Of a stretch of DNA of 64,000 bases, positions 7,480 to 49,194 are shown in pieces. Position numbers and translations under genes: made by a program. Numbering within the stretch: the stretch's first letter is position 1; each line of letters starts with the position of its first letter. The notes beneath the pieces were generated by a model that worked only from the letters and a program-made list of their open reading frames with translations, searched no databases and was not told the DNA's origin. The DNA is taken from positions 133,825 through 197,824 of the IMG/VR virus record IMGVR_UViG_3300045988_163643. One strand, given 5' to 3'. This DNA comes from a virus.

Positions 7480-7508
7480 TTGACTTTTAATAATAAAATG
7501 AGTATAAT
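7480..7508 (+). promoter_or_regulatory. sigma-70-type promoter inside the intron, driving the endonuclease gene
   Basis: TTGACT (7480-7485), 17-nt spacer, TATAAT (7503-7508), then GAGGTG RBS and ATG 7532. Confidence 0.7.
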
Positions 7509-7531
7509 ATAAGTAAAGTGAGGTGATTAAA

Positions 7532-8428: not shown

Positions 8429-8607
8429 TTTAACAAGAATAAACTTCAACGACTAGAACGCAAGTTCGTAGGGTGTAAGCGATTGACACTCGAAATGGGA
8501 AACAATCAAAAACGGGTTGATGATATAGTCTGCTCTCATGGGAAACCATGAGCAGTTTTCATATAAAGAAAACGGATTAAGTGTAGCGAACTTAATTGAA
8601 CAAGAGG

Positions 8608-8754
8608 CAATGGACTTGGTCAATTATGCAGGCAATAATTTTGCGATTTCATCTGATGGTGTAACAGAAGCATTACAACGTGGTGGTTCTGTATTATCTA
8701 ACTATGGAGTAGATTTAAAAGATTCTATCGCAATGATAACTGGGGCAAATGAGT
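8608..8754 (+). CDS. tail tape measure protein, exon 2 of 5
   Basis: AMDLVNYAGNNFAISSDGVTEALQRGGSVLSNYGVDLKDSIAMITGANE is the hallmark TP901-type TMP core. The ORF-track N-terminus MGNHEQ...IEQE (8538-8607) is intron sequence. Confidence 0.8.
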
Positions 8755-9090
8755 TAAATATGGCTCTTTTATATAGTAATATATAATTAAATTTTCTTGA
8801 ATTGACAGGGACTCCCTTAGAGCTTTACACACTAACTTATGATAGAAATATACATAAGGGCATTGCTAACCACAATGATATAGTAAAAGAGGTAAAGATT
8901 GGGAAATCTGCATCTAAGATTCTAAGTTGTGTAAACAATATGAATAAAGTTCAACGACTAAGTATCCTAGTAGTCTAGGTAGTGGGAAACCTCCTATTGA
9001 AGGAGGAAGATATAGTCTCAACGTTTAGTGAAAGCTAAAGAAGTTCATAAGAGAACTGCGTAAGAATAACGAACTTATGTGAAGATATTG
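8755..9090 (+). mobile_element. group I intron (336 nt, no ORF)
   Basis: P1 GAGT/GCTC with U.G at 8754, TTGAATTGACAGGGACTCCCTTAGAGC core, CAACGACTA ... GATATAGTC, and terminal hairpin plus TGAAGATATTG. The U(-1)/terminal-G junction joins the exons in frame (GANE-S-LQDPARIG). Confidence 0.85.
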
Positions 9091-12000
9091 CATTACAAGA
9101 CCCCGCTCGTATAGGTAATGGGCTAAAATCTATAGCAATTAACCTTTCAGGTATTAAAACAAATGCCAAAACAGGTGCTCTTGAATTAAATAAAACAGCA
9201 AAAGCATTGCAAGAGACTGCTAAAATAGATATATTTACTGATAGTACTAAAACACAAGTTAAAGATATCGTTAGTATAATGGATGAAGTAAAAGATAAAT
9301 GGTCTTCTTTAACTGATGTTGAACAAAAAGGACTATCAGAAGCTATAGCTGGAAAAACCCAAGCCGGTGTATTCCAAGCATTAATGACAGGTTGGGAAAG
9401 AGTTCGTCAATATCAAAAAGAATACAATGAAGGTTGGATGATAGGTTCAGCTCAAAGAGAAAATGAAGTCTTTATGGACTCCATTGCTGGTAAATTTAAT
9501 ACTTTAAAAGAAAATCTTAAAGGATTATTAACTAGCAATGTTACAACAGATATGTTTAAAGGACTATTAGATGGTGCTAATAAAGTAGTAGAAGCAGTAG
9601 GAAAAATAAGTTCAAGCTTAGGTAGCATTGGTTCTGCTGGTGCATTAGTAGGTATTTCATCTTTCATAAAAACTTTATCAAATTTAGATAAAGTTAAAAC
9701 AATGGGAAGTGTATTTACTGGATTTGACAAAGTTTTAGGTGGGTTACAAGGTGCATCTGGTATTTCTGGTACAATTAGTACATTAACAGGTAGCTTTAAA
9801 GAATTAGGTGTTGGTGTAACTTTATCTAAAGTAGCATTAGGATTATTTAAAGGTGTACTAATGGGTATTGCATTTACTGCTGTTGTTGCAGGAATAAGTG
9901 CTTGTGTAAAAGCATGGAACGATTATACTCATGCAACAGAAAACGCAGTAAAGGCTTCTAAAGAAAGACAAGATGGATATAGAGATGAAGCACAAACTTT
10001 AAGTACTAAAAAATCAAGCCTACAAGAAATAGCTAAAGAATATGATAATTTAAATAATAAATCTGATAAAACTGCTGAAGATTTAACTAAATTAAATGAA
10101 TTAAAACAACAAATAGGACAAATAGCTCCTGACCTTGTTAAAGGATATGATTCAGCAGGCAATCCAATATTAAACCTTACTACTAGTATGCAGGGTTATA
10201 TAGCTGAATTAAATAAGGCAATTGCTAAACAACAAGAATTATATAACTATGAAACTAAAAAACAAGCACGAGAATATATGAAGAAAAATGACACTAAAAA
10301 TGGAGCTCAAGACCCAGAAAGAAATTCTTATGAAACTGAATTAAATAATCTTCAAAGTGCAAATGATAGAAAAACTAGAGAAGAAAAAAGATATACTGGT
10401 AGCTTAAAAAATATTATTAAAGATAGAAATAAATATAGAGAAGACCAAGAAAAAAGTATTAATGAAAGATTAGAAAGAATTAGAAATTCACAAACAGAAA
10501 TTAATAATAGAGATGCTACACTTGAAGATAATTATGTTAATGAATTTAATAAGAAAACTAAATTAGCCGAAAAAGAACAAAATAAATTTGCTACCTTTAT
10601 GAAAGGGTTAAATTGGGGTACTTATGGTGAAGCAGAAGCCAATAGAATGGCTAATGGTTTACAAAAATTATCTGAAAAGACAGCATTTACAACTCAAGAG
10701 ATGACAAAAGGATTATCAGGTAGCATGTCAAAAAAAGTTTCAGAAGAAATTTCTAAAGTAAATGCAGAATTCAAAAAAACAAATGCTATAAATGAATGGG
10801 GAAAAGGTTTAAGAAAAATAGCTAATGAAACAGGAAAATTTGATTTTTCAAATTGGAGTAATTACTTATCAGAAGTCCAAACTCGTTTTGAACAAGGAGT
10901 AAGTACTAATGAACAATATACACATTCATTAGGAATTATGGCTGATGCTATGGAAGATTTAACTGGTATAGATTCAGATGTATTCTTACCAGCTTTAAAA
11001 GGTGGAGCAGATTTAGAAGAAGCCTTTAAATCAGCAACTGAAGGTTTAAATGGTTTTATGAGTGCTTATGGTTCTTCTACTGCAAAATTACAACAAGGTG
11101 ATTCATTTGCTAAAAAATTAGAATCTCAATTTAAAGAACTTCAAAATTTTGAAACTGAATTTGAAGGTCAATATGAGATGCAAGGTAAAGTTAGTGTAGA
11201 TTGGTTAGTAGAACAAAAAGATAATGAAGATTTACCTAAACAATTAAGAACAATAATAGATGCAGTAACAAAAGATGGAGAAGTAACAGAAGTAGAAGAA
11301 AAATTAGTATTAGCTTGTGAAACAGAAATAAAAGATAAAGGTAAATTACAACAAAGTACAATAGATGCAATAAATCAAGTAATGGACGGAACTTGGGATG
11401 TAAATAAAACTATTGAAATAGGTGGTATGGAATTTACATCATCTGAAATAAAAGAATTAATGTCATTAGCTGACCAATTAGGTATATCTTTAGAAGGTTT
11501 AAATATTGGTGATACAGGATTAGACGGAGAAAACCAAAAAGCTCAAGCATTAAAAGATACAATAGATTCAATTACAGATAGAAATATAAAAGTAGCAATA
11601 GAAGCTGAAGGATTTGAAAATTCAGACCAAGTTAATAATATAATGTCAGTTGTTGACCAAATAGACGGAAAACAAGCTAAAGTTGATTTTATAGCAGATG
11701 CTTCTCAATATTTTAAGGAAAATGATAGTGTTGAATCAGCAATAAATGCTATGCCTGATGAGATAAAACTTAAATATAATATTGGTGTTGAAGGTGATGA
11801 AAGACTAGAAGGAATACAAAGTAGACTTGAAAAATTACCAAAAGATATTAGAACTATGGTATATGCTCAAACATATGGTGTTGAAAATGTTGAAATGCTA
11901 GAAAACATAGTAGATGCTTTTGGTGGAAAAACTGCAACAGCAATATTACAGTTAGATGGTATAGATGAAGCTCTTAGAAATGCTAGTACATTTGAAGAAC

Positions 12001-15000
12001 AATTAAAAATAATTGGAGATTTTATATGTCAACCTGGAGTAGAAATAGAAGGTAAAGATGACATAATTAAAACAATTGATGAAATATTAAAGAAGTTAAA
12101 AGAAACAGATGGGCAAGAAAGTAATCCTAAAATAAACGTAGAAGGAGATACTTCAGGTGCCGAGAAAGTAAAAAAAGAAGTAGATGAAGTAGGCAATAAA
12201 AAAGGGACAGCTAAAGCTGATGTAGATGGAGATACTTCAGGAGCTGAAAAAGTAGAAAAAGAAGTAGACAATGTAAATGGAAAAAAAGGTACTGCTGAAG
12301 CAAATGTGGATGGCAATACTGAAGGTGCTGAAAAAGTAGAAAAAGAAGTAGACAATGTAAATGGGAAAAAAGGTACTGCTAATGTAGATATTAAAGCAGA
12401 TACCTCTGAAGCTGAAAAAGCTAAAAAAGAAGTAGATAATTTAGCAGTCAACAAAAATGGTACAGTTACTTTATTAGTAAATGGTCAAGAAAAAATAGCT
12501 GAAGCTAAAATTAATAAAGGTCAATTAGAAGTAAATGGTCAAGCAGTTACAACTATTTCTGTTAACGGTAAAGACCAATTACCAATAGCTATTAATGAAA
12601 AAGGTCAATTAGAAGTAAATGGTCAAGCTATAACTAATATAGATGTTAATGGTAAAGACCAATTAACTTTAGCTAGAAATGAAAAAGGTCAATTAGAAGT
12701 AAATGGTCAAGCTATAACTAATATAGATGTTAATGGTAAAGACCAATTAACTTTAGCTAGAAATGAAAAAGGTCAATTAGAAGTAAATGGTCAAGCTATA
12801 ACTAATATAGATGTTAATGGTAAAGAAAAAGTTTCTGAAGCAAAAAAAGAAGTTGATGATTTAACCAAAGATAATAAAAATGTTAGTATTAATATTGATG
12901 TTTCATTAAAAGAAACTGTTGGTGAAATATTATCAAGATTTGGATTAAATAAGAAAACAGAAAATGTTGAAATTAATGTAACATGTAATGATAATGCAAC
13001 TCCAGTATTAGAAAAAATAATGGCAAGACAAGATAAAACTATACAAATAAAAGTAGATTGTCAAGATAATGCAACTTCTAAAATAAACAATATAACTAAA
13101 ATAGGAAATAAAACTGTAACAGTTACAATAAATTGTCAAGATAATGCAACTTCTAAAATAAATAGTATAGCTAGTATGGGTAATAAATCTGTAACAGTTA
13201 CTATAAATTGTCAAGACAACGCAAGTTCTACAATAAATAGAGTTACAAGTGCACCTTCTTCTAAAGCAATAAATGTTGTAGTAACTTGTACAAATGGTGG
13301 AGCAGTTCTTAATACTCTTTCTCAATTAGCTAGTAAAGTAATACCTAGTAAAAAATTTACTATAAATTGTACAGATAGTGCTAGTAGTGTAGTAAGTAGA
13401 GTTAATGGTTTAAAAATATCTGATAAGAAATTTACTATAAATTGTACAGATAATGCAACTGCTAAAATAAATAAGGTTATTAGTAAAAAAATACCAAATA
13501 AATCATTTACTATAAGTTGTAATGATAATGCTAGTGGTAAATTAAGTAGTATTATAAGTAAAATAAGTAATATTCGTAGTAAATCAGTAACAATTACTAC
13601 TAATCATGTAAGTACAGGTAAGAGTTCATCTATTGGTGAACCAACAGTTGTTGATTTACAACCTCAACCATTTAGTGCTCAAGCTTCTAATCCTCAAGTA
13701 CAATCATTAGGAGAACAAGTTCAAGTATTAAATGATAGTGTGCAACAACAAACTGACAATAACAATGAAGTTAGTGTAATGGCTAAGAAGACATATAAAG
13801 CTAATATTGATACAGGTTTAACAGTAAGTGCAGTTAAATATAATATTGATTTATTAACTAACATGACTAATATGCTTAAAAAATTAGGAACTCAAGTTGA
13901 TATATTAAAAGCTAAACAAGAAAGAACTTGGGGTACTGCAAGTGCTAAGTTACTTAGAAATCAAATTTCTTTACTAACTAAACAACAAGATTTAACTAAA
14001 ATAAATATTAAAAACATGGAAGGTATGGCTAAAAAACTTAAAGGTAGTTTACAAAAACAAGGATTTAAGTTTAAAGATGACGGAACAATAAGTAATTACA
14101 ATAGTAAACTTGTAAAAATGCAAAAAAATGTTGAAAGTTTAGAGAAAGCTGAAAAAGCACTAGAAGACCAAATAAGTAAAACTGAAAAACAAATTTCAAA
14201 ATCTGAAAAGAAATCTTCAAGTAAGAAAAAATCAACTAGTAAGAAAAAGAAAAGTACTAGTAAGAAAAAGAGTACGAGCAAAAAGAAGAAAACTTCAAGT
14301 AAAAAGAAATCAACTAAGAAAAAGAGCACTAAGAAGAAAACTACTAAGAAGAAGAGTGCTAGTAGAAGCAATAGAAAAACTACATCAAGTAAAGCTAGTA
14401 AAAAGAAGACTACTAAGAAGAAAAAATCAACTAGTAAGAAAAAGAGTACATCAACTAAGAAGAAGAGTACTAAAAAGAGTACTAAAAAGAAAACTACTTC
14501 TAAGAAGAAATCAACCACTAAGAAGAAGAGTACATCTTCAAGCAAGAAATCAAAAGCAACTAAAGCATTAGAAAAGAAAAAGAGCGGATTAGAAAAGAAA
14601 AAGGATGCAATAAGCAAACAATTAGAAAAAGCACAAAAAGAATTATCAGAAACTCAAAGCAAATTAAATGAATATTATAATTTACAATTTAGTGAAATTC
14701 CTGAAGCTCAACAACAATGGGAAGAATATGCTAATGCAATAGCTGAAGCTAAAGCAGAAATAATTAGATGTGAATTAGAAGCTAAAACATTCTTTAAGAC
14801 AATTAAGATGGAAATGAAAGATGCTATGATTAGCAGAAATGAAACTTGGGCAGATACATTTATGTTGAAGGCTGATTTAAGTAGTTGGTCTAAAGCAATA
14901 GGATATATTAAAGAAGCTAATAAATTATTAGCAAAAAATCAACAACATCAACAATCTAAATTAGAAACAGCTCAAGCAAGAGCGGAAGATAATAAAGCAT

Positions 15001-16578
15001 TTTTAAAGAAACAAGGATTTAAATTTGATAAAAATGGATATGTAACAGGTGCTGAAAAAACTTTACAAAAACTTAAAAAGAAGAAATCATCACAAGAATA
15101 CGATGCTATAAAAGAAGCATTTGATAGTTACGTTGATGATATGTATGAAAATATTCCTAAAGCTGAAAATGAATGGTGGAAATTAGAACAAGAAATAAAA
15201 GAAAATGAAAGACAAATAAAAGAAACTACTAAATCTATGAATGATTTAGTTAATTCAGCTAAAGTAGATAAATTAACTAGACAATTTGATGTACTTTCAA
15301 ATACTTTAGATATATTAGACCTTAAAATGGAACGTGCATATGGAGCTAATAAAATAGACTATATGAAACAACAACTTGATATATTATCTAATATGAAAAG
15401 TAAGAATCAAGAAATCATTAATCAAAATACTGAGTTATTAAATAATAGTAAGAAACAATTAGTTAAATATGGTGTTACATTTGATGAAGATGGTAATATA
15501 GATAATCTATCAAAAGCATTGAAAAAATTAGATAATCTACAAGATATGGAAGATTTAAAAGATTTAGCTGATGAATATAATGATTACAAAGATTCAATAG
15601 ATGATGCTAGTAAATCAATTGAAGAAGAAACTAATAAACAACTTGAATTAAAAGATTCAATGATGGAAATTAGAGAAGAAATGAGAAAACTTAGAGATGA
15701 TGCATGGGTTAAAACTTATGAAAATGGTCTAAAAGTTATTCAAAATCGTATTGATACAATAGATTCTTTATTAGATTTGGAAGATGAAAATCAATTTGGT
15801 TTACTAAATCAAAAAATTGAAGAATATAAGAATTTAACTAAAGCGACTGAGGATAGTTTGGCTTATCAAAAACATAGAAAAATCACTATGCAAAAAACAT
15901 TGATTGATTATGGTTTCACTATTAATGATGATGGTACAATAGATGGAACTGCTAATAAATTAGAACAACTTAAAAATACATTATCTGAAACTGAATTTGG
16001 TATAGTAAGTGATACATTAGAAGATTATTTTGATACTGCTTTAGATACAATTCCTGAATTAGAAAGAGAATTAATAAAATATCAAAAAGATTTAAAAGAT
16101 ATACAAAATACTAAACTAGAAAAGACTAAAACTATTGAAGAAAAAATTACTGAAATATATAATGATGAAATAGATAAAAGAACTAAAAAGATACAAGAAG
16201 AAGCAGAAACACAAACTAAAGCACTTAATAAAGCCAAAGAATCTTATCAGAGATGGAGAGACGAAGTTGACTATAAAGATGATTATAATAAACAATTAAA
16301 AACTGTTGAAGATTTACAAAAGAAAATAGAAATAGCAAAACGTGATGACAGCTTAACTGGACAAAAACGTTTAGCTGATTTGATGAAAGAATTAAAAGAA
16401 GAACAAGAAAATCTTGAAGATTTAGTTCAAGACAAAATAGATTCAGATATAAATAACATGTTTGATGACCAAATAGATAAAATAGAAGAAAATTCTGATG
16501 AAGAAGTTAAGAATTTGGAAAAAACATGGTCAGAAAGCAAAATAGCTGAAATGGTTAAACAAGCACTTGATACTGGAG
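9091..16578 (+). CDS. tail tape measure protein, exon 3 of 5
   Basis: Starts (S)LQDPARIGNGLKSIAINLSGIKTN..., continuing the TMP core. Then a hydrophobic GVGVTLSKVALGLFKGVLMGIAFTAVVAGISA segment, tandem repeats, a K/S/T-rich tract and long coiled coil. The ORF track begins only at internal M 9207. Confidence 0.85.
12135..12450 (+). repeat. in-frame tandem repeat, ~84-nt unit x ~4 (DVDGDTSGAEKVEKEVDNVNGKKGTAEA)
   Basis: Read directly from the DNA and translation of TMP exon 3. Confidence 0.85.
12510..12830 (+). repeat. in-frame tandem repeat, 84-nt unit (NEKGQLEVNGQAITNIDVNGKDQLTLAR)
   Basis: 12594-12677 and 12678-12761 are identical at the DNA level, and a third copy is truncated at about 12827. 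More diverged copies lie upstream. Confidence 0.9.
12960..13610 (+). repeat. in-frame ~75-nt repeat x ~9, one Cys per unit (INCQDNATSKINxIxxxGNKxVTVT)
   Basis: Periodic (I/V)xC(Q/T/N)DNA(T/S)... units in the TMP exon 3 translation. Confidence 0.8.
14205..14560 (+). repeat. low-complexity polybasic K/S/T tract (~120 aa) inside the TMP
   Basis: SKKKSTSKKKKSTSKKKSTSKKKKTSSKKKSTKKK... It also creates the spurious ORFs 14096..14617(-) and 14356..14571(+). Confidence 0.9.
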
Positions 16579-16925
16579 TAAATTAGCTCCTTTTACTAAG
16601 TAATTAGTATTAAAACTCATTGAATTGCTGGAACTTCCTAAAGCTAACTAAACTACAATATGGCTAGAAATGGCGAATATGAATGTGGCGAAAGCAGAAA
16701 AAATTAGTTAGATATTCATATGGTTAAATCCTAAGTGAATGTAAATGGATAATCAGCAGGGAAGTCCCTTTAAAATGGGAAACCTTCAACGACTATATAT
16801 ACTAGTAGTCTAGTTAGTGGTGAGCATCCTTATAGGATGATGATATAGTCTACTCTCATGTGAAAGCATGAGCAGTTCATAAGAGAACGGTATAAGGTTT
16901 AACGAACTTTATATGAATGTTAAGG
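16579..16925 (+). mobile_element. group I intron (347 nt, no ORF)
   Basis: P1 GGAGT/GCTCC, P2 TACTAAGTAATTAGTA, TTGAATTGCTGGAACTTCCTAAAGC, AATCAGCAGG, CAACGACTA ... GATATAGTCTAC, P9 hairpin, and tail TGAATGTTAAGG. Junction +/-1 nt (see the splice-junction finding). Confidence 0.8.
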
Positions 16926-17034
16926 TGTTTACAGATATCGATGGGAATATAAAAACTCTTCAAACAGCATTAATGGATTTTGCTAATGAAAGTTCTGATT
17001 ATTTTGGAGTTATGGGTAATGTTGCCCTAGTCGT
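16926..17034 (+). CDS. tail tape measure protein, exon 4 of 5 (109-nt micro-exon)
   Basis: This is the only open frame: (V)FTDIDGNIKTLQTALMDFANESSDYFGVMGNVALV. The other two frames hit stops. It is bounded by introns on both sides. Confidence 0.7.
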
Positions 17035-17227
17035 AGAGTAATTTGCGACTGAAAATAGATTTAATTGCAGGTAATTCCTAAAGCCTTACACCACAAGTAT
17101 TCTGAAAAGAGATACTGAAGGTACGAAAGTAGAAAAAACGTAAGGATGAATATAAGGTTAAACCCTAAGTATTCGTAATAATGGATGTTCATGCAGGTAA
17201 GATTCTAAATTAAATTATTTTAAATAT

Positions 17228-17256
17228 TTGACTTTTAATAATAAAATGAGTATAAT
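17228..17256 (+). promoter_or_regulatory. sigma-70-type promoter inside the intron
   Basis: TTGACT-N17-TATAAT, in a block nearly identical to 7455-7531. Confidence 0.7.
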
Positions 17257-17278
17257 ATAAGTAAAGCGAGGTGATTAA

Positions 17279-18607
17279 ATGGCAAAAAGAAAAAGATATA
17301 CATATCAAGATGTTAAAAATATTGTTGAAAATGAAAATTATGAATTAATAAGTACAGAAAATGAAATTATTGATGAAAAGGGATTTGTTAAAACATCAAC
17401 TAAAATAACAGTATGGTGTAAAAATGAAAATCATAATTATATAAAACCTCAATTAAGTAAGTTTCTCAAAGGGGGTAGATGTGGAAAGTGCAGAAATGAT
17501 AATAAAAAACTTGATTATAAATATGTAAAAGAATATGTTGAATCATTTGGATATAAATTATTATCAAAAGAGTATAAAAATAATTCAACGGATTTGTTAA
17601 TTGAATGTCCATTAGAACATAAGTTTAAAATGATTTTTAATAATTTTAAAAAAGGACAAAGATGTCCCAAATGTGGTGAAATAAAAAGAAGAGAAAAAAG
17701 AACGATATGGAATAAAGAAAAAATAATTAATTTTGTGAAAAATAGTAATTATGAATTTATCAAATTTGTTAAATTTGACAAATTAAACTCAAGAATATTA
17801 ATAAAATGTAATAATAAAAAACATGAGTCATATGAAGTTACTTTTGCTAATTTTAAAAATGGAAAAAGATGTCCGTACTGTTCTAATCATGTAAAATTTG
17901 ATTATAAATATGTAAAAGAATATATTGAATCATTTGGATACAAGTTATTATCAAAAGAATATAAAAATACAAATGAATATATTTTAATAAAATGCCCTGA
18001 TGAAAATCATAAACCTTATTTAGTTAAATTTTCTTCTTTTAAAAATCAAGAAACTAGATGTCCTTATTGTCAAAATAAAAAAAGAGGATTATATAGAAAG
18101 TTTGATTATAAATATGTAAAAGAATATGTTGAATCATTTGGATATAAATTGTTATCAAAAGAATATAAAAATTGTGATGAAAAACTAAAAATAGAATGTA
18201 ATAAAGGACATATTTATGAAGTATCTTTTTATTGTTTTAAAAATTTAAATACAAGATGTCCTATATGTAATGAGAGCAAGGGAGAAATAAAAATAAGAGA
18301 GATACTTAATAAATATGATATAAAATTTACTCCTCAAAAGAAATATAGTAAATTAATTGGAATTAAAGGCAGACAATTGTCTTATGATTTTTATTTACCT
18401 TTATATAACACATTGATAGAATATCAAGGAGAATATCATGATGGTACGGGATATAATCAAACTAAAGAAAAATTTGAAACCCAAAAAGAACACGATAAAA
18501 GAAAAAGAAATTACGCTAAAGACAATAACATAAAATTATTAGAAATATGGTATTATGATTTTGATAATATAGAAAATATATTAATAAAAGAATTGAATTT
18601 AAAATAA
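17279..18607 (+). CDS. intron-encoded homing endonuclease: 5 tandem Zn-ribbon modules plus Vsr/DUF559-like nuclease
   Basis: Five repeats ending in RCGKC / RCPKC / RCPYC / RCPYC / RCPIC, then GEIKIREIL...LSYDFYLP...IEYQGEYHDG...LEIWYYDFDNIENILIKELNLK. The C-terminal 14 aa match the 7532-8428 protein. Confidence 0.8.
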   Translation: MAKRKRYTYQDVKNIVENENYELISTENEIIDEKGFVKTSTKITVWCKNENHNYIKPQLSKFLKGGRCGKCRNDNKKLDYKYVKEYVESFGYKLLSKEYKNNSTDLLIECPLEHKFKMIFNNFKKGQRCPKCGEIKRREKRTIWNKEKIINFVKNSNYEFIKFVKFDKLNSRILIKCNNKKHESYEVTFANFKNGKRCPYCSNHVKFDYKYVKEYIESFGYKLLSKEYKNTNEYILIKCPDENHKPYLVKFSSFKNQETRCPYCQNKKRGLYRKFDYKYVKEYVESFGYKLLSKEYKNCDEKLKIECNKGHIYEVSFYCFKNLNTRCPICNESKGEIKIREILNKYDIKFTPQKKYSKLIGIKGRQLSYDFYLPLYNTLIEYQGEYHDGTGYNQTKEKFETQKEHDKRKRNYAKDNNIKLLEIWYYDFDNIENILIKELNLK

Positions 18608-18783
18608 TTTAACAAGAATAAACTTCAACGACTAGAACGCAAGTTCGTAGGGTGTAAGCGATTGACACTCGAAAAGGTCTACCCTTAATATTAAGGTGAA
18701 GAAATAGTCTAGTCACTCTAGGAAACTAGGTGCTTAGAATTAACTAAGGTTTATAGTGTAGCGACTATAAATAAATATTAACG

Positions 18784-19093
18784 TGATAGCTTAAAGAAAG
18801 AATTATTAGACAATCTTAATGTAGCATTGGAAACTATGAAAGAACTTCAAAAAATGTCAGATAATTATACAGCTCCTAATATAGATTATAGTAATACGGT
18901 ACTTCCAAAAGATAGTACTATTAATACTTCTCCACAAGTTTCTAGTAATGTTGAAACTAATAATATTACAATTGGAGATACAAATATTACAATTCAAGGT
19001 AGTGCAGATGATGTTACTTTAGGAAAAGTAGATGAAATGTTAAAAGATTACAAAGCAAGTATTTGTAAGGAAATTGTTAAAAATATGAAATAA
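18784..19093 (+). CDS. tail tape measure protein, exon 5 of 5
   Basis: (V)DSLKKELLDNLNVALETMKELQ...ITIGDTNITIQGSADDVTLGKVDEMLKDYKASICKEIVKNMK*. The five exons total 13,170 nt, which is 4,389 codons plus a stop, in frame. Confidence 0.8.
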
Positions 19094-40739: not shown

Positions 40740-42122
40740 ATGGCTACAGAAGGTAAAAAAATAAGTCAACTAACAGAAGTGTTAAGTGTTGACAAAGAAA
40801 ATGACTATATAATTGTACAACGTGGAGCAGATAATAAAAAGTTAAAATTAGCCAATGTAATGACAACAGATAATATGGGTGACAATTATGTTGATTTAAA
40901 ATCATATGAAGATAAAAGTGAATTTAGATTAATTATAAATGATGATGGAAAAGTTCAAGTATTTCCAAAGGAATGTGTTGAGGGTCATACTTATGCTGAA
41001 AATGATAATTTACAAATGCCTTTAAAATTAGCTAGTTATATAGGTAATTCTCAAACTGCATTATCTACTGTTAATAATGGAGGTATTGTTATTAATCAAA
41101 TTTATGGTGGTGGAGATTTAGTACCAACATCAACTTTACAAGCACCTAGCGTTAGTCATAGTTTTGTTGAATTATACAATCGTAATGTTGTAGATATTAA
41201 TTTAAAAGGATTATATTTACATTATAAAGGTAATGATGAAACTGTTTGGAAAACATTAGCGTTAAGAGGACTTTTACCAGCACACACTGCTTTTTTAATT
41301 AGAGGTAAACAACATGGAGATTTAATGAGTGATTTAGTAAGATGTAAAATATACGATTATGACCAAGAATGGATAGATTCTGATAAAAATGAACCTATTG
41401 CATTTAGTAGAAATGGTATGTCAATGTTTTTATCAACTAACTCAACTCCGCCTAATGCTAATGAAAACCCTAATAGATATCTTATAACAACTGATACTTC
41501 AGGTGTATCAACATTATCATATGTCAATGGATATTATGTAGATTTATTAGGTGTGGGTAGTGCTGATGGAACAAAAAACCCAGTTGCTTATGAAAAATTC
41601 TATTGGACTTGTATGGATAAAGATACTGCAATAAGAAGAATAGATTTTTATAATAATAAAAATAACAAATATGATACAAAAGCTATAAATTATAAAACTT
41701 GTAATATAGAACATTATAGACCAAGAAGTTTAAGAGATGGAATTTGGGATAACTATTGTGATAAAGCAACTATAAATGAAAACATACCTAATCTTATAGA
41801 TATAACTTTTGGTGAACAACCTACAACAAGACTTTTTACATGGCAATCTGTTTTAACAGATAATGGTTGTGTAAAACTTAGAAGAATAAAAGATAAAAGT
41901 GGAGTAGCAGTAACTGAAAATTGGAAAAAATATGAAAGTGAACGTGAAATAGTTAATAATCATGGTACATTTATGACAATACATAGAACTAAAATAACCA
42001 ATATAACACCTGGTTTATACGAATATCAATGTGGAGAAGAAGGTTATTGGTCAGATGTACAAATGATAGAAATGAGAGAATATACAGATAGTAGTACTAT
42101 TAAAATGCTTTGGACTACGGAT
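40740..42122 (+). CDS. LTD plus purple-acid-phosphatase-like metallophosphoesterase, exon 1 of 4
   Basis: Lamin-tail-domain signature SHSFVELYNRNVVDINLKGLYLHY and a PAP N-terminal-like beta domain. The exon ends ...KMLWTTD (motif I Asp). The TAA at 42123 is the first intron codon. Confidence 0.75.
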
Positions 42123-42446
42123 TAAATATTAGTCCCTATGTAAAGTGATTTATATAGCAAACCTCTTGAATTGCTGGGAAACCCTTAGAGCCTTAATACC
42201 ACAATATAAGAGAAATCATTATATGAAGGTTTGAAAAGTTTAAGGATTGGGTAATCAGCAGGTAAGATTCTAAGTTGTATAAACAATATGAATAAACTTC
42301 AACGAACAAGTATCCTAGTAGTCTAGGTAGTGGGAGGGGTCTCGAAAGAGATTGTGATATGCTCTACTCTCATGTGAAAGCATGAGCAGTTTTCTTTGAG
42401 TAAGAAAACGGGTAGAATAGTAACGATATTCTATTGAATATAAAGG
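42123..42446 (+). mobile_element. group I intron (324 nt, no ORF)
   Basis: P1 GGAT/GTCC with U.G at 42122 and a 3-bp extension, TTGAATTGCTGGGAAACCCTTAGAGCC core, and tail TGAATATAAAGG. The junction is in frame (TTD-QQG). The P7 strands diverge (CAACGAACA / GATATGCTC). Confidence 0.8.
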
Positions 42447-42570
42447 CAACAAGGTTTCACTCAACCTGAGTATGAAGCATGGAGAACTTGTGTTAAAGCT
42501 ATGCAAACTAGAACTGATTTTTATAATAATTATGGCTTACCTGTATTTGATTTTCATTTGAACACTGGAG
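42447..42570 (+). CDS. metallophosphoesterase, exon 2 of 4 (124 nt)
   Basis: Only open frame: QQGFTQPEYEAWRTCVKAMQTRTDFYNNYGLPVFDFHLNTG(D). Confidence 0.75.
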
Positions 42571-42935
42571 TAACAAATTAAGCTCCCTATGTAAATAAAT
42601 TGCATAGCAAACCCTTTGAATTGCTTGTAATCCCTAAAGTCAACTAAACTACAACGTGATTGGAAACGATGAGCGTGAATGTGGCGAAAGCAGAAAAAAT
42701 TAGTTGAATTGTATATGGTTAAATCCTAAGTACTATAAACAATGGGTGTCTAGCAGGTAAGATTCTAAGTTACTATAAGTAATATGAATAAACTTCAACG
42801 ACTATATATACTAGTAGTCTAGTTAGTGGAGGGCATCTCTTTATGGGATGATGATATAGTCTACTCTCATATGAAAGTATGAGCAGTTCATAAGAGAACG
42901 GTATAAAGTATAACGAACTTTATATGAATATTAGG
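42571..42935 (+). mobile_element. group I intron (365 nt, no ORF)
   Basis: P1 GGAGT/GCTCC, TTGAATTGCTTGTAATCCCTAAAG core, CAACGACTA ... GATATAGTCTAC, and tail TGAATATTAGG. Junction +/-1 nt. Confidence 0.8.
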
Positions 42936-43033
42936 ATATTTCACAAAATGCATCTAATTTATTTGAATGGTTGTATTACACTGATTATGGTGAAGAATTT
43001 TGTAGAAACATTCCTCACTTAACTGCATGTGGT
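42936..43033 (+). CDS. metallophosphoesterase, exon 3 of 4 (98 nt)
   Basis: (D)ISQNASNLFEWLYYTDYGEEFCRNIPHLTACG. Together with exon 2 this gives GDIS (motif II) and ends at the G of motif III. Confidence 0.75.
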
Positions 43034-43347
43034 AAATGTTAGCCACCTTTACATAGTGATATGTAATGAAAAACTCATTGAATTGCTGGAAAGTCCTAAC
43101 GTAAAGACGAGGATAATCAGCAGGGAAGTCCCTTTAAAATGGGAAACCTTCAACGACTATCCCTTAGATGTTGAAATACATCAATAGGAGTACGGCTCAA
43201 GTGATTGGAGTGGGTGAAAATCCCTTAAATGGAAGTGGTGAGCATCTCAATAGAGATGAAGATATAGTCTACTCTCATGTGAAAGCATGAGCAGTTTTCA
43301 TGTAAAGAAAACGGATTAAGTGTAGCGAACTTAATTGAATATAAAGG
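43034..43347 (+). mobile_element. group I intron (314 nt, no ORF)
   Basis: P1 TGGT/GCCA with U.G at 43033, TTGAATTGCTGGAAAGTCCTAACG core, CAACGACTATCCC ... GATATAGTCTAC, and tail TGAATATAAAGG. The junction is in frame (ACG-NNDLV). Confidence 0.85.
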
Positions 43348-44361
43348 AATAATGACCTCGTTGATAAAAAATATGGTTTTGCTTATGAACATTATGCTAC
43401 ATATGAAAATGTACCTAAATTAAATGATTATCATAAAGAAGTTCAAGCAACAACAGATTTTCCTATGGTATCTACATATTCTTTTGATTTAGGATTTACT
43501 CATTTTATATGTATAAATTCAAATCAAGAACAAATGTATAATGATTATGGTATAAATCAAACAGAATTTTTATTAAAACAAGCTTACTTCCTAGATAGAG
43601 ATTTATGGAAGGTTAGTAAAAGAACTACAAAACCTAAATGGGTAATTGTATATGCACATTTAAGTCCTTTTACTGTAACAAGAGCAAAAAGATTACAACA
43701 TTGGATACCTATACTTGAAAAATATAATGTAGATTTATTCTTATGTGGTCATAACCATACATATTCAAGAAGTATACCAATAAAATGTGGATATGAAAAA
43801 TCTGCATATGCAGATATGATAAATGAAAAAAATTATAATACCTATGTACCAAAAAGTGGTAAAAATTACACTTTAGTAAATGAAACAAAATTAAGTGGTA
43901 GTGAGATAACTAGAAGTGCTAACATATCTCAAGGTGTTTATTATGTGATGTTCCAAGCAGGTGGTGCTAAACAAAGTGGTAAAGAAAAAGCTATTGATTT
44001 AAGTACTATGACATTCTTAAATAGCACTGGTGGAACAGTAACAAGTGGTACTGAATATACTAAACATTTCCATAGTGGAACAAATAGACCTTGGTGGTAT
44101 GAATATACTAGCTCTTTACCAGTACAACCTTGTTTTGCAACTTTAGATATTTCACCAACATCAATAAAAATGAGTATGAATTATGTTAAAGAAGTAGAAG
44201 CTATAGATAAAGAAACTGGCGTAATGACTGTAGATAAATACGACCCAAATAAACATACAATTGTTAACTTTGATAATTTAACAATAAATTATTCAGATAG
44301 AAATCCAGCTTATAGAACTGGAGTATCTGCTCCTTATTATGACGAGAATAAAAATTATTAA
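43348..44361 (+). CDS. metallophosphoesterase, exon 4 of 4
   Basis: NNDLVDKKYG...WVIVYAHLSPF...DLFLCGHNHTYSRS (PAP motifs III-V). The four exons total 2,619 nt, which is 872 codons plus a stop. The ORF track begins only at internal M 43465. Confidence 0.8.
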   Translation, partial: NNDLVDKKYGFAYEHYATYENVPKLNDYHKEVQATTDFPMVSTYSFDLGFTHFICINSNQEQMYNDYGINQTEFLLKQAYFLDRDLWKVSKRTTKPKWVIVYAHLSPFTVTRAKRLQHWIPILEKYNVDLFLCGHNHTYSRSIPIKCGYEKSAYADMINEKNYNTYVPKSGKNYTLVNETKLSGSEITRSANISQGVYYVMFQAGGAKQSGKEKAIDLSTMTFLNSTGGTVTSGTEYTKHFHSGTNRPWWYEYTSSLPVQPCFATLDISPTSIKMSMNYVKEVEAIDKETGVMTVDKYDPNKHTIVNFDNLTINYSDRNPAYRTGVSAPYYDENKNY

Positions 44362-44374
44362 AGGAGATGATTAA

Positions 44375-47087
44375 ATGTCTATTAAAAGATGTATTGTTAA
44401 AGACGGAAAAGAACAATGGATAGAAGTTGCTGGAGGAAGTAGCACTATAAATACAGGTGAAGCGATAAACGTTAGTATAAAAGATAATAACGATTTATTT
44501 GAAAGTACAAACGTCGAAGGAGCCTTAAGTGAGTTAGGAACTGATTTGCAAAATGTTAGCAATAAATTAACAAATCACGTAAACAATTCTTCTATACATG
44601 GTGGAGGTGGAGGTGGTGGTAGTATGCCTACCATCACTTCTGATTTTACTATAAATAAATCAGATGGTATAAGCGAAATAGAAATACCAATATTTTTTAA
44701 TTCACCTAACTTAGGTGAAGGTTTAGCTTATATATTAGTTAGTAATGTTGAAGTAGGTACACAAACTGTTCAACAAGGTAACAATACGATTATAGTTCCT
44801 CCTTTGGGAGCTGGTAAAAATATAATTATATCAATATATGTAAAAGATAGAGCAGGTTTAATATCTAACCAAATAAACTGGACAGTAACAAGTGGTGGTA
44901 TAACATTAACAATGCTTACTGACACAAGTGCAGATTATGGTGTTACAAGTAGAATAGTTTTATCATATACAATATCTTCTATGACTGGTGAAGATATTAA
45001 AGTTTATTTTGATGTAGATGGCACAACATATGAAACAAAAGGTACTAATGGATATAACACTTATGAAATTACAGGATTAGATATAGGTGTACATACTATA
45101 ACTTATTGGGCGACATCAGCAGAATATGAAACAAAACATAGTACATTTACACTAATAGTAGTAAGTAAAGACCAAATAATATTATCAACTCAATTTGATT
45201 CAACAATTGAATATGAAAGTGGTATACCAATTAGTATACCATATAGATTATCAGTAGATAGAGATGATGATTTTATTGTAAATTTATATATAAATAATGT
45301 TTTAGATAAAACCATAGTAACTAGACCAACTTCATTGTATTGGACTATATCATCATTAGACCCTGGTGATTATACTTTAAAAATAGAAGCAAAAAATGAA
45401 TCTTTAGGAATGAATAATCATATAGAATTTGAATGTAAAGTTATTCAAAGTGAATATACTAGAATACAACCAGTAATAGATAGTTCTTTAATAGCTTGGT
45501 TTGATGCAACAAATAGAACTAACAATGATAGCGATAGGGATGTTTGGACTGATAAAATAAAAGGCAATAAAGGTTATCTTTATAATTTTAACTATGGTTC
45601 TAATGGATGGTTAAAACAAAGTGGTAAGGAAATTAGTGAACTTGTTATGAATGGTACTGCTTATGTTGAAATAGACATGACACCTTTTGCTGATAACTTT
45701 AAAAATGGTGGTGTAATCGAATTAGTATTTAAAACTAGAGATGTTGGTAATAGTAATGCTAGAGTTTTAGATATAACAGATACACTATCACCATATAAAG
45801 GTGTTTATATTGATACAAGAGAAGCATATTTATCTACTTCATCACAATCTATAAATGGTTCTATAGGTGAAGATGAATATATACAAGTGTTATATAATAT
45901 AGATAGAATTAACAAATATTGTCATATAGTTGTTAATGGAGTAATAATAAAATCTTGTAAATTAGCTGATAGTGGTAGTGGTACTTCTGCTATATTAGAA
46001 TCATTAGCTCATTCTAAAAAGATTTATTTAAATTCCCAAAAAGGAACTAATAATTTTGGCTCTTGTGAAATAGCACATTTGAGAATATATGATAGAAACT
46101 TTACTTTTGATGAAATATTGCAAAACTTTTTATCAAATTACGATGATTTAAAAGTACAAAAAAGTAAATCGGATTTTAATAATCCATTAAAGAATATAAT
46201 GCCTATCATGAATATAACTGCTGACCAAAAACGTTTAGATGATATGACAGATACAAATAGAGTTGAAGTTGCTATGACATATACATCTCCTAATGCAGAT
46301 TTATATGGACAAACTTTAACTAACGCTAGTAACTGTTTAATGTATTGGCAAGGTACATCTTCTATAGCATATAATATTAAAAACTTTAATATATTACTTA
46401 GAGATGAAAATAGACAACCAATAATGTATAGTCCTTTTAAAAATTGTATACCACAAGATTTATTTTGTCTAAAAGCAAACTTAATGGAATCTACTAATGC
46501 TCATAACGTAGGTATAGCTGAATATGTTCATGATTACTTATATACAACTTTGAATCCTGCACAAAAAATAGATAGTAGAGCTAGTAGAACAGTACAAGGT
46601 TTCCCTATATTACTTTATATAAATGGTGAATTACAAGGTGTATATGACTTCAACTTAGATAGATATTCAACAAAAGCGTTTGGATATGAATTAGATGAAT
46701 ATAAAGATACTTGTAGAGCATATGAAATTTCAGCAAATACTAATAAAACTGCTGGTGCATTTATTCCTTGGACTAAGGAAACTGGTGTAGATGAATGGAC
46801 ATGGTATAAAAATGACTTTGTAGGTATATATCCTGAACGTATACAAAATTCAATTAATGATGATTTCTCTGCATTAAAAACATTAATATCATTTGTGCAT
46901 GATTCTACTGATGAAGTTTTTACTACAAATTTCGCTACATATTTTGATAAAGAATCAGTAATAAGATATTACATTTTAGTTCTAGTACTTGGTTTAGTGG
47001 ATAGTTTAGGAAAAAATATGAAGCTAGTAACATTTGATGGTGTTAAATGGGAAATACAAGTATATGATGCTGATACGGCTTTTGGGT
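44375..47087 (+). CDS. giant fibre-like protein with LamG-like and CotH-like domains, exon 1 of 3
   Basis: N-terminal VEGALSELG and a poly-Gly stretch, Ig-like repeats, and a LamG-like block (...AHLRIYDRNFTFDEI). CotH-like segments VQGFPILLYINGELQGVYDFNLDR and KNMKLVTFDGVKWEIQVYDADTAFG. The 30-aa ORF tail after 47087 is intron read-through. Confidence 0.7.
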
Positions 47088-47165
47088 TAATAATAGCTCA
47101 AATAAAACCTTTTCTGATATACGGCGAAACTCCTGGAGAGGACAACGCCTTCCAACTATTATTTA

Positions 47166-47194
47166 TTGACAAATTATAAAAATATATGTATAAT
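47166..47194 (+). promoter_or_regulatory. sigma-70-type promoter inside the intron
   Basis: TTGACA (47166-47171), 17-nt spacer, TATAAT (47189-47194), then AGGAGG RBS 47218-47223. Confidence 0.7.
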
Positions 47195-47230
47195 ATAAAT
47201 ATAAAGAGAATATATATAGGAGGTGATTAT

Positions 47231-48088
47231 GTGTGTAAGAAAGAGAATAGTTTTGCACAATGGTTTATAAATGAATTTGGATTAGAAAAATTTAACACTG
47301 TCATAAATCATGAAAAAAATAAATCATTAGGCATAGATATTTGGAACGTATCAAAGAGAAGTGGTTGTAAAATTTGGTTTAAATGTGAAAATAAAGATTA
47401 TCACGAATATCAACTTACAGCCGATAAATATTTTATTGGTAATAGATGTAAATATTGTGGCAGAACAAAATATGTTCATCCAAGAGATTCGTTAGGTCAA
47501 TATATAATTGATAACTTTGGAGAAGATTTTTTAAATAGAATATGGTCAACAAAAAATAAAAAATCGCCTTTTGAATATACTATTGGAACTGAGAAGAAAG
47601 TTTGGTTTAATTGTATCAATGGTATTCATGAACCAAAATTAAGACAAATAAAAAATTCTGTTGCTAACGACTTTAAATGCCCATTTTGTTTAAAAAATTG
47701 CCATATTTCAAAATTAGAAAAGAAAGTGTTTTTATATTTAAAAAGCATTTTTAAAAACATAAATAGAGAAAGCAATTGTAATTTAATACCCAAAAATCCT
47801 AAAACTAATAAAATAATGCCTTATGATAATGAGATAGTGGACATAAAATTAATAATAGAAGTACATGGAAAACAGCATTATGAATTATCAGTAGATACAA
47901 GTGCATGGTTACATGGATTATCACCAGAAGAATATCTTCATAAAAGAAAATTGTATGATAGGTATAAAAGAATGTACGCAAAGTCCAATGGTTATTATTA
48001 TTTAGAAATACCTTATTGGGCTGATGATTTAGAGGAAACTTGGAAAATTATGATTGATGATAAAATAAAAGAAATATTAAGTCAATAA
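47231..48088 (+). CDS. intron-encoded homing endonuclease: Zn-ribbon modules plus Vsr/DUF559-like nuclease (divergent member)
   Basis: WFKCENKDYHEYQ...NRCKYCG and VWFNCINGIHEP...FKCPFCL modules, then ...PYDNEIVDIKLIIEVHGKQHYE...YLEIPYW. The GTG 47231 start is preferred because the track ATG at 47186 overlaps the -10 box. Confidence 0.7.
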   Translation: MCKKENSFAQWFINEFGLEKFNTVINHEKNKSLGIDIWNVSKRSGCKIWFKCENKDYHEYQLTADKYFIGNRCKYCGRTKYVHPRDSLGQYIIDNFGEDFLNRIWSTKNKKSPFEYTIGTEKKVWFNCINGIHEPKLRQIKNSVANDFKCPFCLKNCHISKLEKKVFLYLKSIFKNINRESNCNLIPKNPKTNKIMPYDNEIVDIKLIIEVHGKQHYELSVDTSAWLHGLSPEEYLHKRKLYDRYKRMYAKSNGYYYLEIPYWADDLEETWKIMIDDKIKEILSQ

Positions 48089-48732: not shown

Positions 48733-49194
48733 AAACAATATTCCTCGTACATAGAGAAATCTGTGTAGGACACAACTTTAATTGCAGGTAATGGGTAAAG
48801 CTCTACACCACAATATATCTGAAAAGAATATATGAAGGTACGAAAGTAGAAACAACGTAGAGATTCTCATACGGTTAAATCCTAAGTGAGAAGTGATTAG
48901 ATTCACACAATCCCTGTTCATGCAAGGAAGTTCCTAAGTGATAATCTTGTATCATATGGAAAACCTTCAACGACTATCCTGGAAAGATAAGTGAAATCCT
49001 TATCAATAGGAGTACGGCTCAAGCGATTGGAGTGGGTGAAAATCCCTTAAATGGAAGTGGGTTGCCCTTAACAGGTAATGCTGAAGGTGAAGAAATAGTC
49101 TACTCTCATGTGAAAGCATGAGCAGTTCTTTATTAAATTTTTAACATTTAATAAAGAACGATATGTATGTAGCGAATACATATGAATACAAAGG
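48733..49194 (+). mobile_element. group I intron (~462 nt, no ORF)
   Basis: TTAATTGCAGGTAATGGGTAAAGC core (same subtype as 17035-18783), CAACGACTATCC ... GAAATAGTCTAC, P9 hairpin, and tail TGAATACAAAGG with terminal G 49194. The 3' exon is in frame from 49195. The 5' junction is ambiguous (48732-48741). Confidence 0.75.

What the first reader, a model, noticed from the sequence alone, without database searches (positions are those of the whole stretch)
42100..43360. Three introns sit exactly on catalytic motifs I, II and III of a metallophosphatase
After splicing the protein reads ...LWTTD|QQG..., ...FDFHLNTG|DISQN... and ...LTACG|NNDLV.... Later come VYAHLSPF and LCGHNHTYSRS, the purple-acid-phosphatase-type motif series (D, GD..Y-like, GN(H/N)D, H, GH.H).

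Each intron interrupts the codons of a metal-ligand motif. The exons between them are only 124 and 98 nt. This fits the idea that homing elements target the most conserved, least mutable DNA, but three in one active site is striking.
Basis: partly seen in the sequence, partly recalled or inferred. Interest (0 to 1): 0.7.

Follow-up and report, generated by a model that had tools for sequence, protein, structure and literature searches.

The report
Three introns split phage phosphatase active site
A tail-region phosphatase gene of an uncultured gut phage is cut by three self-splicing group I introns, each placed right at a codon for a metal-binding residue; this is a clear and unusually dense example of the known habit of mobile introns to settle in the least changeable parts of genes.

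Summary
Rfam finds three full-length group I introns at 42123-42446, 42571-42935 and 43034-43347. Removing them gives an 872-aa protein with a purple-acid-phosphatase-like metallophosphatase domain. The junctions fall at D461|Q462 (motif I), inside the D503 codon (motif II) and at G535|N536 (motif III). All three residues are invariant in 41 homologues.

Comparison with about 200 related loci extends the finding.
- A fourth site, G669|H670 (motif V), is often occupied, and some phages carry four introns in this gene.
- Three rarer sites exist. None was seen at motif IV.
- The window's introns have no endonuclease gene. Relatives carry endonuclease-bearing versions at sites I, II, III and V.
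- Ribozymes and endonucleases both cluster by site.
- Phages about 96% identical differ in which sites are filled.
- Exons downstream of intron 1 are under purifying selection (dN/dS about 0.1).

The homing interpretation is supported, but the principle is already known, so this is a new member of a known kind.

Two extras deserve follow-up. The window holds nine related introns, of which Rfam reports three. Intron 2 and several relatives must be excised one nucleotide upstream of the expected U·G wobble pair, which is not canonical.

The parts
40740..42122 (+). Exon 1 (residues 1-461). It holds an N-terminal region, a lamin-tail-like domain, the purple-acid-phosphatase N-terminal domain and strand beta-1. 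It ends with the motif I Asp codon GAT (42120-42122).
   Evidence: ORF 40740-42125. Pfam LTD 112-191 (below cutoff) and Pur_ac_phosph_N 350-440. D461 is invariant. Codon map.
42123..42446 (+). Intron 1: group I intron, 324 nt, no ORF. Canonical junctions: U42122 pairs with the guide-sequence G, and the intron ends in G42446.
   Evidence: Rfam RF00028, 62.5 bits. Orthologues in L009 and L010 score 92-95 bits. Compensatory changes in P3 and P8 and one A x C mismatch in P7 relative to the orthologues.
42447..42570 (+). Exon 2 (124 nt; residues 462-502 plus the first base of the D503 codon).
   Evidence: Translation matches homologues: QQGFTQPEY...FDFHLNTG.
42571..42935 (+). Intron 2: group I intron, 365 nt, no ORF. 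It splits the codon of the bridging Asp D503 as G|AT. The 5' junction is not after a U. U42571, which pairs with the guide-sequence G, belongs to the intron.
   Evidence: Rfam 65.1 bits. Empty-site alleles read ACAGGAG|ACATT and occupied alleles read ACTGGAG[T...G]ATATT. Splicing after U42571 gives a frameshift and a stop.
42936..43033 (+). Exon 3 (98 nt; the rest of the D503 codon through G535).
   Evidence: Translation (D)ISQNASNLFEWLYY...LTACG matches homologues.
43034..43347 (+). Intron 3: group I intron, 314 nt, no significant ORF. It lies between G535 and N536 (motif III, GNND).
   Evidence: Rfam 100.5 bits, E 7.7e-25. Its 3' half is about 81% identical to an intron in the Bacillus phage AR9/PBS1 virion protein gene.
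43348..44361 (+). Exon 4 (residues 536-872 plus stop). It holds motif III N536 (43348-43350), motif IV H639 (43657-43659), motif V G669-H670-N671-H672 (43747-43758) and a C-terminal beta domain. The motif V site, G669|H670 (between 43749 and 43750), is empty here and occupied in many relatives.

Best explanation
One gene, 40740-44361 on the + strand, encodes an 872-aa virion or tail-module protein. Its catalytic domain is a binuclear metallophosphatase of the purple-acid-phosphatase type. The gene is interrupted by three self-splicing group I introns. After transcription each ribozyme removes itself, and the four exons are joined into one reading frame.

The introns sit at the motif I Asp, the motif II bridging Asp and the motif III Asn because they descend from mobile introns spread by site-specific homing endonucleases. 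Such an element persists best where the target DNA cannot drift, because it encodes invariant residues, and where imprecise loss would destroy the enzyme. In this phage the three copies have lost their endonuclease genes. They now persist as passive, splicing-competent passengers.

Shown here: intron identity, exact positions relative to conserved residues, endonuclease-bearing versions at the same sites, site-specific lineages, presence/absence differences among near-identical phages, and purifying selection on downstream exons.

Inferred: actual self-splicing, endonuclease cleavage specificity, and the enzyme's substrate. My guess for the substrate is a phosphodiester in a cell-envelope polymer such as teichoic acid, given the tail-fibre neighbourhood.
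For: - Rfam hits above the gathering score for all three introns.
- The in-frame 872-aa product has Pfam Metallophos and Pur_ac_phosph_N domains.
- The ligand residues are invariant.
- PDB profile alignment, the structure model and Foldseek all point to purple acid phosphatases.
- Intron-less homologues at 54-75% identity read through the sites.
- Junction counts in about 200 loci, by the residue the junction follows: 461: 10; 502: 16; 535: 22; 669: 17.
- L009 and L010 carry four introns; Rfam detects three in L009 and four in L010.
- Intron ORFs match PHROG 559, 9084 and 7140, annotated as HNH, homing and intron-encoded endonuclease.
- Endonucleases at one site are 52-98% identical (site V) or 65% (site II), against 31-46% between sites.
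- Ribozyme cores also cluster by site.
- Empty and filled alleles occur within the 96% clade, with short tracts of synonymous differences beside site I.
- dN/dS is 0.09-0.12 for the downstream exons and 0.08-0.10 for exon 1.
- P3 and P8 of intron 1 show compensatory changes.
Against: - No RNA data: splicing is inferred, not observed.
- Intron 2 lacks the canonical U at -1, so its splicing chemistry or efficiency is uncertain.
- Intron 1 in this window has a mismatch in P7 and a lower Rfam score than its orthologues (62.5 against 92-95 bits).
- The window's own introns carry no endonuclease, so homing is history, not present activity.
- Site III endonucleases of L001 and of L033/L036 are no closer to each other than to other sites (37-40%), so one site was invaded more than once, or endonuclease genes were swapped.
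- The motif I assignment rests on profile start positions, invariance and the model, not on a residue-level structural superposition.
Confidence: 0.85

Rival explanations
1. Site choice is set mainly by the ribozyme, not by endonucleases. Introns spread within the genome by reverse splicing, or by recombination at short matches to the guide sequence. The motifs are hit because GD, GN and GH all start with a Gly codon (GGN) that fits the GG-rich 5' exon preference of this intron family.
For: - All four major sites follow or lie next to a Gly or Asp codon of the form GGN or GAU.
- The site II lineage recurs in the tape-measure gene at 16.6 kb with an identical 7-nt 5' exon, ACTGGAG, but an unrelated 3' exon.
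- The site V (L005-type) lineage is sister to the 17.0 kb intron, with 5' exon GGG in both.
- A site-II-type ribozyme sits at site III in L056.
- The window's introns have no endonuclease.
Against: - Endonuclease-bearing versions exist at every major site, and the endonucleases are site-specific lineages.
- GGN codons are common in the gene, yet the filled sites are nearly all invariant motifs.
- The same codon junction is used across 30-96% identical hosts, which needs a longer conserved target than 4-5 nt.
- This rival is probably complementary to homing, explaining jumps to new sites, rather than an alternative to it.
Confidence: 0.25
2. The gene is a decaying pseudogene that tolerates insertions, and the introns mark a dead active site.
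For: Three to four interruptions in 1.3 kb. A non-canonical junction at intron 2. A P7 mismatch in intron 1.
Against: - dN/dS of downstream exons is 0.09-0.12, equal to exon 1.
- All five spliced models give 872 aa without stops.
- All ligand residues are retained.
- Ribozyme helices show compensatory changes.
Confidence: 0.03
3. The introns have been taken over for regulation: splicing efficiency controls the timing or amount of the phosphatase during infection.
For: Only circumstantial. There are nine related introns in late or structural genes of this 64-kb window. Alternative splicing and exon skipping are reported for other phage introns (PMC11878797).
Against: Presence and absence of each intron vary freely among near-identical phages. 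That argues against a required function.
Confidence: 0.05

Closest known systems
Group I introns in Bastillevirinae (Bacillus) phage DNA polymerase and terminase genes (PMC11878797)
   Same: Phage genes are split by two or three group I introns, many with homing endonuclease ORFs in a loop. Rfam gives only partial matches for the endonuclease-bearing ones. The endonucleases are assigned through PHROG families.
   Different: The host gene here is a tail-module metallophosphatase, not a replication or packaging gene. Up to four introns occur per gene, with seven insertion sites across relatives. Nothing here has been validated experimentally.
Staphylococcus phage Twort orf142 with three group I introns (Landthaler and Shub 1999; recalled from memory, not read here)
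   Same: Three short, related, ORF-less group I introns lie in one small stretch of one phage gene, in an intron-rich genome.
   Different: As far as I recall, the function of orf142 and its active-site relation were not defined. Here each intron maps to a named metal-ligand motif.
Statistical preference of introns and inteins for conserved sites (PMC2814812); four clustered intein sites in haloarchaeal MCM (PMC10643990)
   Same: Selfish splicing elements with homing endonucleases sit at the most conserved, functionally critical residues. Several sites cluster in one protein, and occupancy varies between strains.
   Different: Those cases are replication and nucleotide-metabolism proteins and, for MCM, inteins. 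This case is RNA introns in a phosphatase.
Bacillus phage AR9/PBS1 gene g205 (virion protein, annotated as a three-piece join)
   Same: A structural gene of a phage is split by two group I introns homologous to those here (about 81% identity over the 3' core of intron 3). The junctions I infer from sequence and reading frame are canonical, with a U·G pair at the 5' splice site.
   Different: A different host protein. The inferred AR9 junctions are canonical, whereas intron 2 here is offset by one nucleotide.
Plant purple acid phosphatases (PDB 3zk4, 6gja, 1kbp) and phage 'phosphatase' genes of crAss-like phages and Bacillus phage G gp352
   Same: The same fold and motif order: an N-terminal beta domain followed by the metallophosphatase domain. 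Phage homologues are 24-31% identical over 65-83% of the length.
   Different: The motifs are variants: TDQQ instead of GDxG, GDxxQ instead of GDxxY (so no tyrosinate ligand), and GNND instead of GNHE/D. There are extra N-terminal lamin-tail-like and C-terminal domains. The substrate is unknown.

Membership tests
Group I intron (Rfam RF00028) | Covariance-model score at or above the family gathering score over the full model | tested here: met
   62.5, 65.1 and 100.5 bits against a cutoff of 50, model positions 1-253 each.
Group I intron (Rfam RF00028) | Terminal G (omega G) immediately before the 3' exon | tested here: met
   The introns end in ...AAAGG|CAA...UUAGG|AU and ...AAAGG|AAU, consistent with the reading frame.
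Group I intron (Rfam RF00028) | 5' splice site after a U that forms a U·G wobble with the internal guide sequence | tested here: inconclusive
   Met for intron 1 (GGAU|, guide GUCC). Compatible for intron 3 (GUGGU|, guide GCCAC). Not met for intron 2: reading frame and empty-site alleles put the junction at GGAG|U, so the wobble U is intron nucleotide +1.
Group I intron (Rfam RF00028) | Self-splicing started by guanosine | not testable with these tools
   Indirect support only: purifying selection on downstream exons and compensatory changes in P3 and P8.
Mobile (homing) group I intron | Intron-encoded homing endonuclease | tested here: not met
   The window's three introns have no ORF over 52 aa. 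Versions of the same introns in relatives carry ORFs of 242-363 aa matching PHROG 559, 9084 and 7140.
Mobile (homing) group I intron | Presence/absence differences at a fixed site among close relatives, with the same site used in distant hosts | tested here: met
   The 96% clade shows at least nine different occupancy patterns. Hosts 30-43% identical use the same codon junctions.
Calcineurin-like metallophosphatase (Pfam PF00149), purple acid phosphatase type | Profile match above the curated cutoff, plus the PAP N-terminal domain | tested here: met
   Metallophos 32.7 bits (cutoff 21.5) and Pur_ac_phosph_N 33 bits (cutoff 30). Homologues match the full profile.
Calcineurin-like metallophosphatase (Pfam PF00149), purple acid phosphatase type | Five ordered motifs: D..., GDxx(Y/D), GN(H)(D/E), H, GHxH | tested here: met
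   TTD461QQ, GD503ISQ, GN536ND, H639 and GH670NH672, all invariant. Motifs III-V align to PAP structures. The variants Q506 for Tyr and N537 for His are noted.
Calcineurin-like metallophosphatase (Pfam PF00149), purple acid phosphatase type | Beta-alpha-beta-alpha-beta sandwich fold with the motifs at the C-terminal ends of strands | tested here: met
   AlphaFold2 pLDDT 87.1, with a strand directly before each motif. Foldseek against PAPs gives E 7e-22 to about 1e-16 and target TM-score up to 0.67. No residue-level superposition was available.
Calcineurin-like metallophosphatase (Pfam PF00149), purple acid phosphatase type | Metal-dependent phosphoester hydrolysis | not testable with these tools
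   No assay was possible.

The most novel reading that the evidence does not exclude
Several lineages of these phage group I ribozymes may choose their 5' splice site one nucleotide upstream of the guide-sequence wobble. The lineages are intron 2 here, the window introns at about 7.3, 16.6 and 17.0 kb, the site V introns of L005, L019 and L002, and the introns of L054 and L056. In them, nucleotide -1 is G paired with C (or U paired with A), and the U·G pair is formed by the intron's own first nucleotide. If so, this is a natural departure from the near-universal U(-1)·G rule. It would let the introns settle in targets that have no U at the junction, such as GG(A)G|AU of the GD motif and GGG|CAC of the GH motif.
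Probability: 0.35. Interest if true: 0.65.

Novelty: new member of a known kind. Interest (0 to 1): 0.42.

Why it matters
This is a clean, quantifiable illustration of how selfish splicing elements map the least changeable residues of an enzyme. Four of the five metallophosphatase motifs are marked by independent intron lineages.

It gives a natural series of empty and filled alleles, with and without endonucleases, that could be used to study the homing cycle in gut phages.

It shows that standard annotation breaks this gene into fragments (461, 505 or 668 aa) and that Rfam misses two thirds of the introns in this window. Intron load in uncultured phages is therefore likely underestimated.

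The one-nucleotide offset at the 5' splice site, if confirmed by RNA data, would interest ribozyme specialists and people who design group I based circular-RNA or trans-splicing tools.

Tried and rejected
- Megablast of the gene against 50,697 phage records found only an intron-core match to AR9/PBS1. No close cultured relative exists.
- PHROGs has no family for the spliced protein.
- A profile of residues 440-545 alone found nothing in the PDB. Motif I was therefore placed through Pfam profile start positions in homologues and through the structure model.
- Rfam in E-value mode added no introns, although nhmmer profiles built from the introns found six more.
- I tested every alternative junction for intron 2: after U42571 with either G; after U42566; and other 3' sites. 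All give frameshifts, stops, loss of the invariant Gly or Asp, or an intron that does not end in G (and reasoning from the sequence).
- I considered a sequencing error as the cause of the intron 2 offset. I rejected it because the same junction recurs in dozens of independent assemblies.
- The pseudogene reading was rejected by dN/dS.
- A literature search for natural non-U 5' splice sites was unproductive. Two queries were malformed and one returned nothing specific.
- Host identification stayed vague. Relatives are binned with low-GC Bacilli, Clostridium and Mollicutes-like genomes from gut samples.
Full report
WHAT IS THERE

The window is AT-rich (about 28% G+C). Around the finding it carries a phage tail module: a distal-tail-protein homologue, a Peptidase_S74 fibre (annotated in the syntenic locus L001), and a CotH-domain protein. 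Rfam's group I intron model matches three times on the + strand at 42113-42386, 42539-42883 and 43023-43291. The scores are 62.5, 65.1 and 100.5 bits against a gathering score of 50, and each match spans the whole model.

I set the boundaries from the guide-sequence pairing, the terminal G and the reading frame. That gives exons 40740-42122, 42447-42570, 42936-43033 and 43348-44361, and introns of 324, 365 and 314 nt. None of the introns has a meaningful ORF.

THE PROTEIN AND ITS MOTIFS

Pfam finds the purple acid phosphatase N-terminal domain (350-440) and the Metallophos domain (495-674), both above their curated cutoffs. It also finds a sub-threshold lamin-tail domain.

A search of 5.8 billion proteins gave 268 relatives. 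Dozens are uninterrupted proteins of 860-880 aa, 54-75% identical to the query. In an alignment of 41 sequences, D461, G502, D503, G535, N536, N537, D538, H639, G669, H670 and H672 are invariant.

Several lines place the motifs:
- The PDB profile search aligns GNND, H639 and GHNH with GNHE, the motif IV His and GHVH of plant purple acid phosphatases.
- For motif I, the Pfam profile starts at position 1-5 within the strand K/RxLWTTD in six homologues. This puts the Asp at about profile position 8.
- An AlphaFold2 model (pLDDT 87.1) has a beta strand ending just before each motif: 454-459 before D461, 497-500 before G502-D503, 530-532 before G535-N536, 633-637 before H639, and 665-669 before H670.
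- Foldseek's best hits are purple acid phosphatases and phytases, followed by PhoD.

The junctions are therefore D461|Q462, inside the D503 codon (G|AT), and G535|N536. Under a uniform model, three insertions all touching one of seven ligand codons has p of about 1e-6.

WHAT RELATIVES SHOW

I fetched about 200 loci encoding relatives from viral, genome and metagenome collections and mapped their exons with tblastn.

Occupancy in the clade about 96% identical to the window varies widely:
- I+II+III (the window)
- II+III
- II+III+V
- I+II
- I+III
- I+II+III
- I+III+V
- I+II+III+V (L009, L010)

Here V is a fourth site, G669|H670 in motif V. Rfam confirms three of the four introns in L009 and all four in L010.

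Homologues only 30-43% identical carry introns at exactly the same junctions: site I in L058; site II in L039 and L188; site III in L033, L036, L056 and L188; site V in L019, L036, L042 and L055.

Junction counts by the residue the junction follows are 461: 10; 502: 16; 535: 22; 669: 17. Rarer sites lie in the T466 codon (L041), after about residue 510 (L054, L180, L191, L194) and near residue 305 (L201). No locus had an intron at motif IV.

ENDONUCLEASES AND LINEAGES

Many of these introns are 1.1-1.5 kb long and carry ORFs of 242-363 aa in the same loop. The ORFs match PHROG 559, 9084 and 7140, annotated as HNH, homing and intron-encoded endonuclease. Pfam sees only zinc-finger modules, DUF4379 and CapR.

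Endonuclease-bearing versions exist at site I (L130, L131), site II (L010, L039), site III (L001, L033, L036) and site V (many loci). Site V endonucleases are 52-98% identical to one another and the two at site II are 65% identical, against 31-46% between sites. Site III holds two unrelated lineages.

Ribozyme cores, with the ORFs removed, also cluster by site. The tape-measure introns at 16.6 and 17.0 kb are sisters of the site II and site V lineages. Within the 96% clade, filled site I alleles all read ACG GAT|CAA CAA GGW, while empty ones read ACW GAC CAA CAG GGC.

All of this fits homing, followed by endonuclease loss in the copies present in this window.

IS THE GENE ALIVE?

Between the window and four relatives, dN/dS is 0.08-0.10 for exon 1 and 0.09-0.12 for everything downstream of intron 1. 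All spliced models are 872 aa without stops.

Intron 1 differs from its orthologues by compensatory changes in P3 and P8, plus one A x C mismatch in P7. The introns must therefore be removed accurately in vivo.

AN UNEXPLAINED DETAIL

Intron 2's guide sequence GCUCC pairs with GGAGU (42567-42571). By the usual rule, cleavage would follow U42571. That gives a frameshift and a stop.

Empty alleles in the same clade read ACAGGAG|ACATT, so U42571 belongs to the inserted element. The junction is GGAG|U...GG|AU, with G-C at -1 and the U·G pair at +1.

Reading frame plus a terminal G force the same one-nucleotide offset in these introns:
- the window introns at about 7.3, 16.6 and 17.0 kb
- the site V introns of L005, L019 and L002
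- the introns of L054 and L056

L041 has C-G at -1. The site I lineage follows the canonical rule, and so do the junctions I infer for the homologous AR9 g205 introns. I cannot tell whether these ribozymes select the site differently or whether my P1 model is incomplete. RNA data are needed.

COMPARISON WITH WHAT IS KNOWN

The tendency of group I introns and inteins to sit in conserved, functionally critical sites has been shown statistically (PMC2814812). Two or three group I introns per gene are documented in phage DNA polymerase and terminase genes (PMC11878797). Clustered, variably occupied intein sites are known in MCM (PMC10643990).

The closest cultured-phage homologues of the protein are Bacillus phage G gp352 (31%) and the 'phosphatase' of crAss-like phages (about 26%). 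I found no paper linking group I introns to a phage metallophosphatase.

This is therefore a new and unusually complete example of a known phenomenon, not a new mechanism.

VERDICT

- Observation: confirmed.
- Interpretation: supported.
- Novelty: new member of a known kind.
- Interest: moderate. It is raised somewhat by the four-motif pattern, by the intron density (nine in 64 kb, six of them invisible to Rfam) and by the splice-site offset.

Noticed in passing
window 1-150, 7266-8606, 8754-9098, 16579-16925, 17018-18783, 48735-49194 (+ strand; boundaries approximate): Six more group I introns of the same family bring the window to nine. Rfam reports none of these six, even at E<=0.1. nhmmer profiles built from the phosphatase introns find their 5', middle and 3' core segments.
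   Followed up: partly
window 2150-19093: A giant tape-measure-like reading frame is split by four of those introns. It consists of ORFs of 1712 and 2459 aa plus short exons at about 8607-8753, 16926-17017 and 18784-19093. Two of the four introns carry endonuclease ORFs (7523-8428, 301 aa; 17279-18607, 442 aa).
   Followed up: partly
window 47186-48088: A 300-aa ORF directly after the CotH-domain gene (44375-47179) matches the same endonuclease families (PHROG 559 and 9084, Pfam DUF4379). I did not resolve whether it is free-standing or lies in an unrecognised intron. The CotH ORF may run into non-coding sequence at its 3' end.
   Followed up: no
window 42570/42571 and 42935/42936; also 7265/7266, 16578/16579, 17017/17018; L005 4039/4040; L054 about 5373; L056 4451/4452: The 5' splice junctions lie one nucleotide upstream of the nucleotide that pairs with the guide-sequence G. 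Nucleotide -1 is G-C in most cases. This is forced by reading frame, a terminal G and empty-site alleles.
   Followed up: partly
L041 7258-8584; L054 about 5374-6730 (also L180, L191, L194); L201 about 536-798: Three further, rarer intron sites occur in the same gene in distant relatives: in the T466 codon, after GDISQNANRS (about residue 510), and near residue 305. These are conserved patches but not metal ligands.
   Followed up: partly
window 42297-42308 and 42356-42368 (intron 1, P7 strands): Intron 1 of the window reads GAACA/UGCUC where its L009 and L010 orthologues read GACUA/UAGUC. That is one compensated pair and one A x C mismatch in P7. Its Rfam score is about 30 bits lower than that of the orthologues.
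   Followed up: partly
L130 7384-8473 and other intron ORFs: The endonuclease ORFs pair repeated treble-clef zinc fingers with a C-terminal stretch (...FDFY...EFDGEQHF...HD...K...). From memory this looks like a Vsr or PD-(D/E)xK-type nuclease rather than HNH, despite the PHROG label. Not tested.
   Followed up: no
L203 (Bacillus phage AR9 KU878088, 173392-176547): AR9 g205 'virion protein' is annotated as a three-piece join. Its two introns are homologous to those here. The small ORFs g206 and g207 annotated inside them are probably not genes.
   Followed up: partly
residues 506 and 537 of the spliced protein (window 42944-42946, 43351-43353): The family conserves Q (nearly invariant) where purple acid phosphatases have the Fe-binding Tyr (GDxxY). 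It has an invariant N where they have the catalytic His (GNHE/D). The chemistry or metal pair may therefore differ from classical purple acid phosphatases.
   Followed up: no
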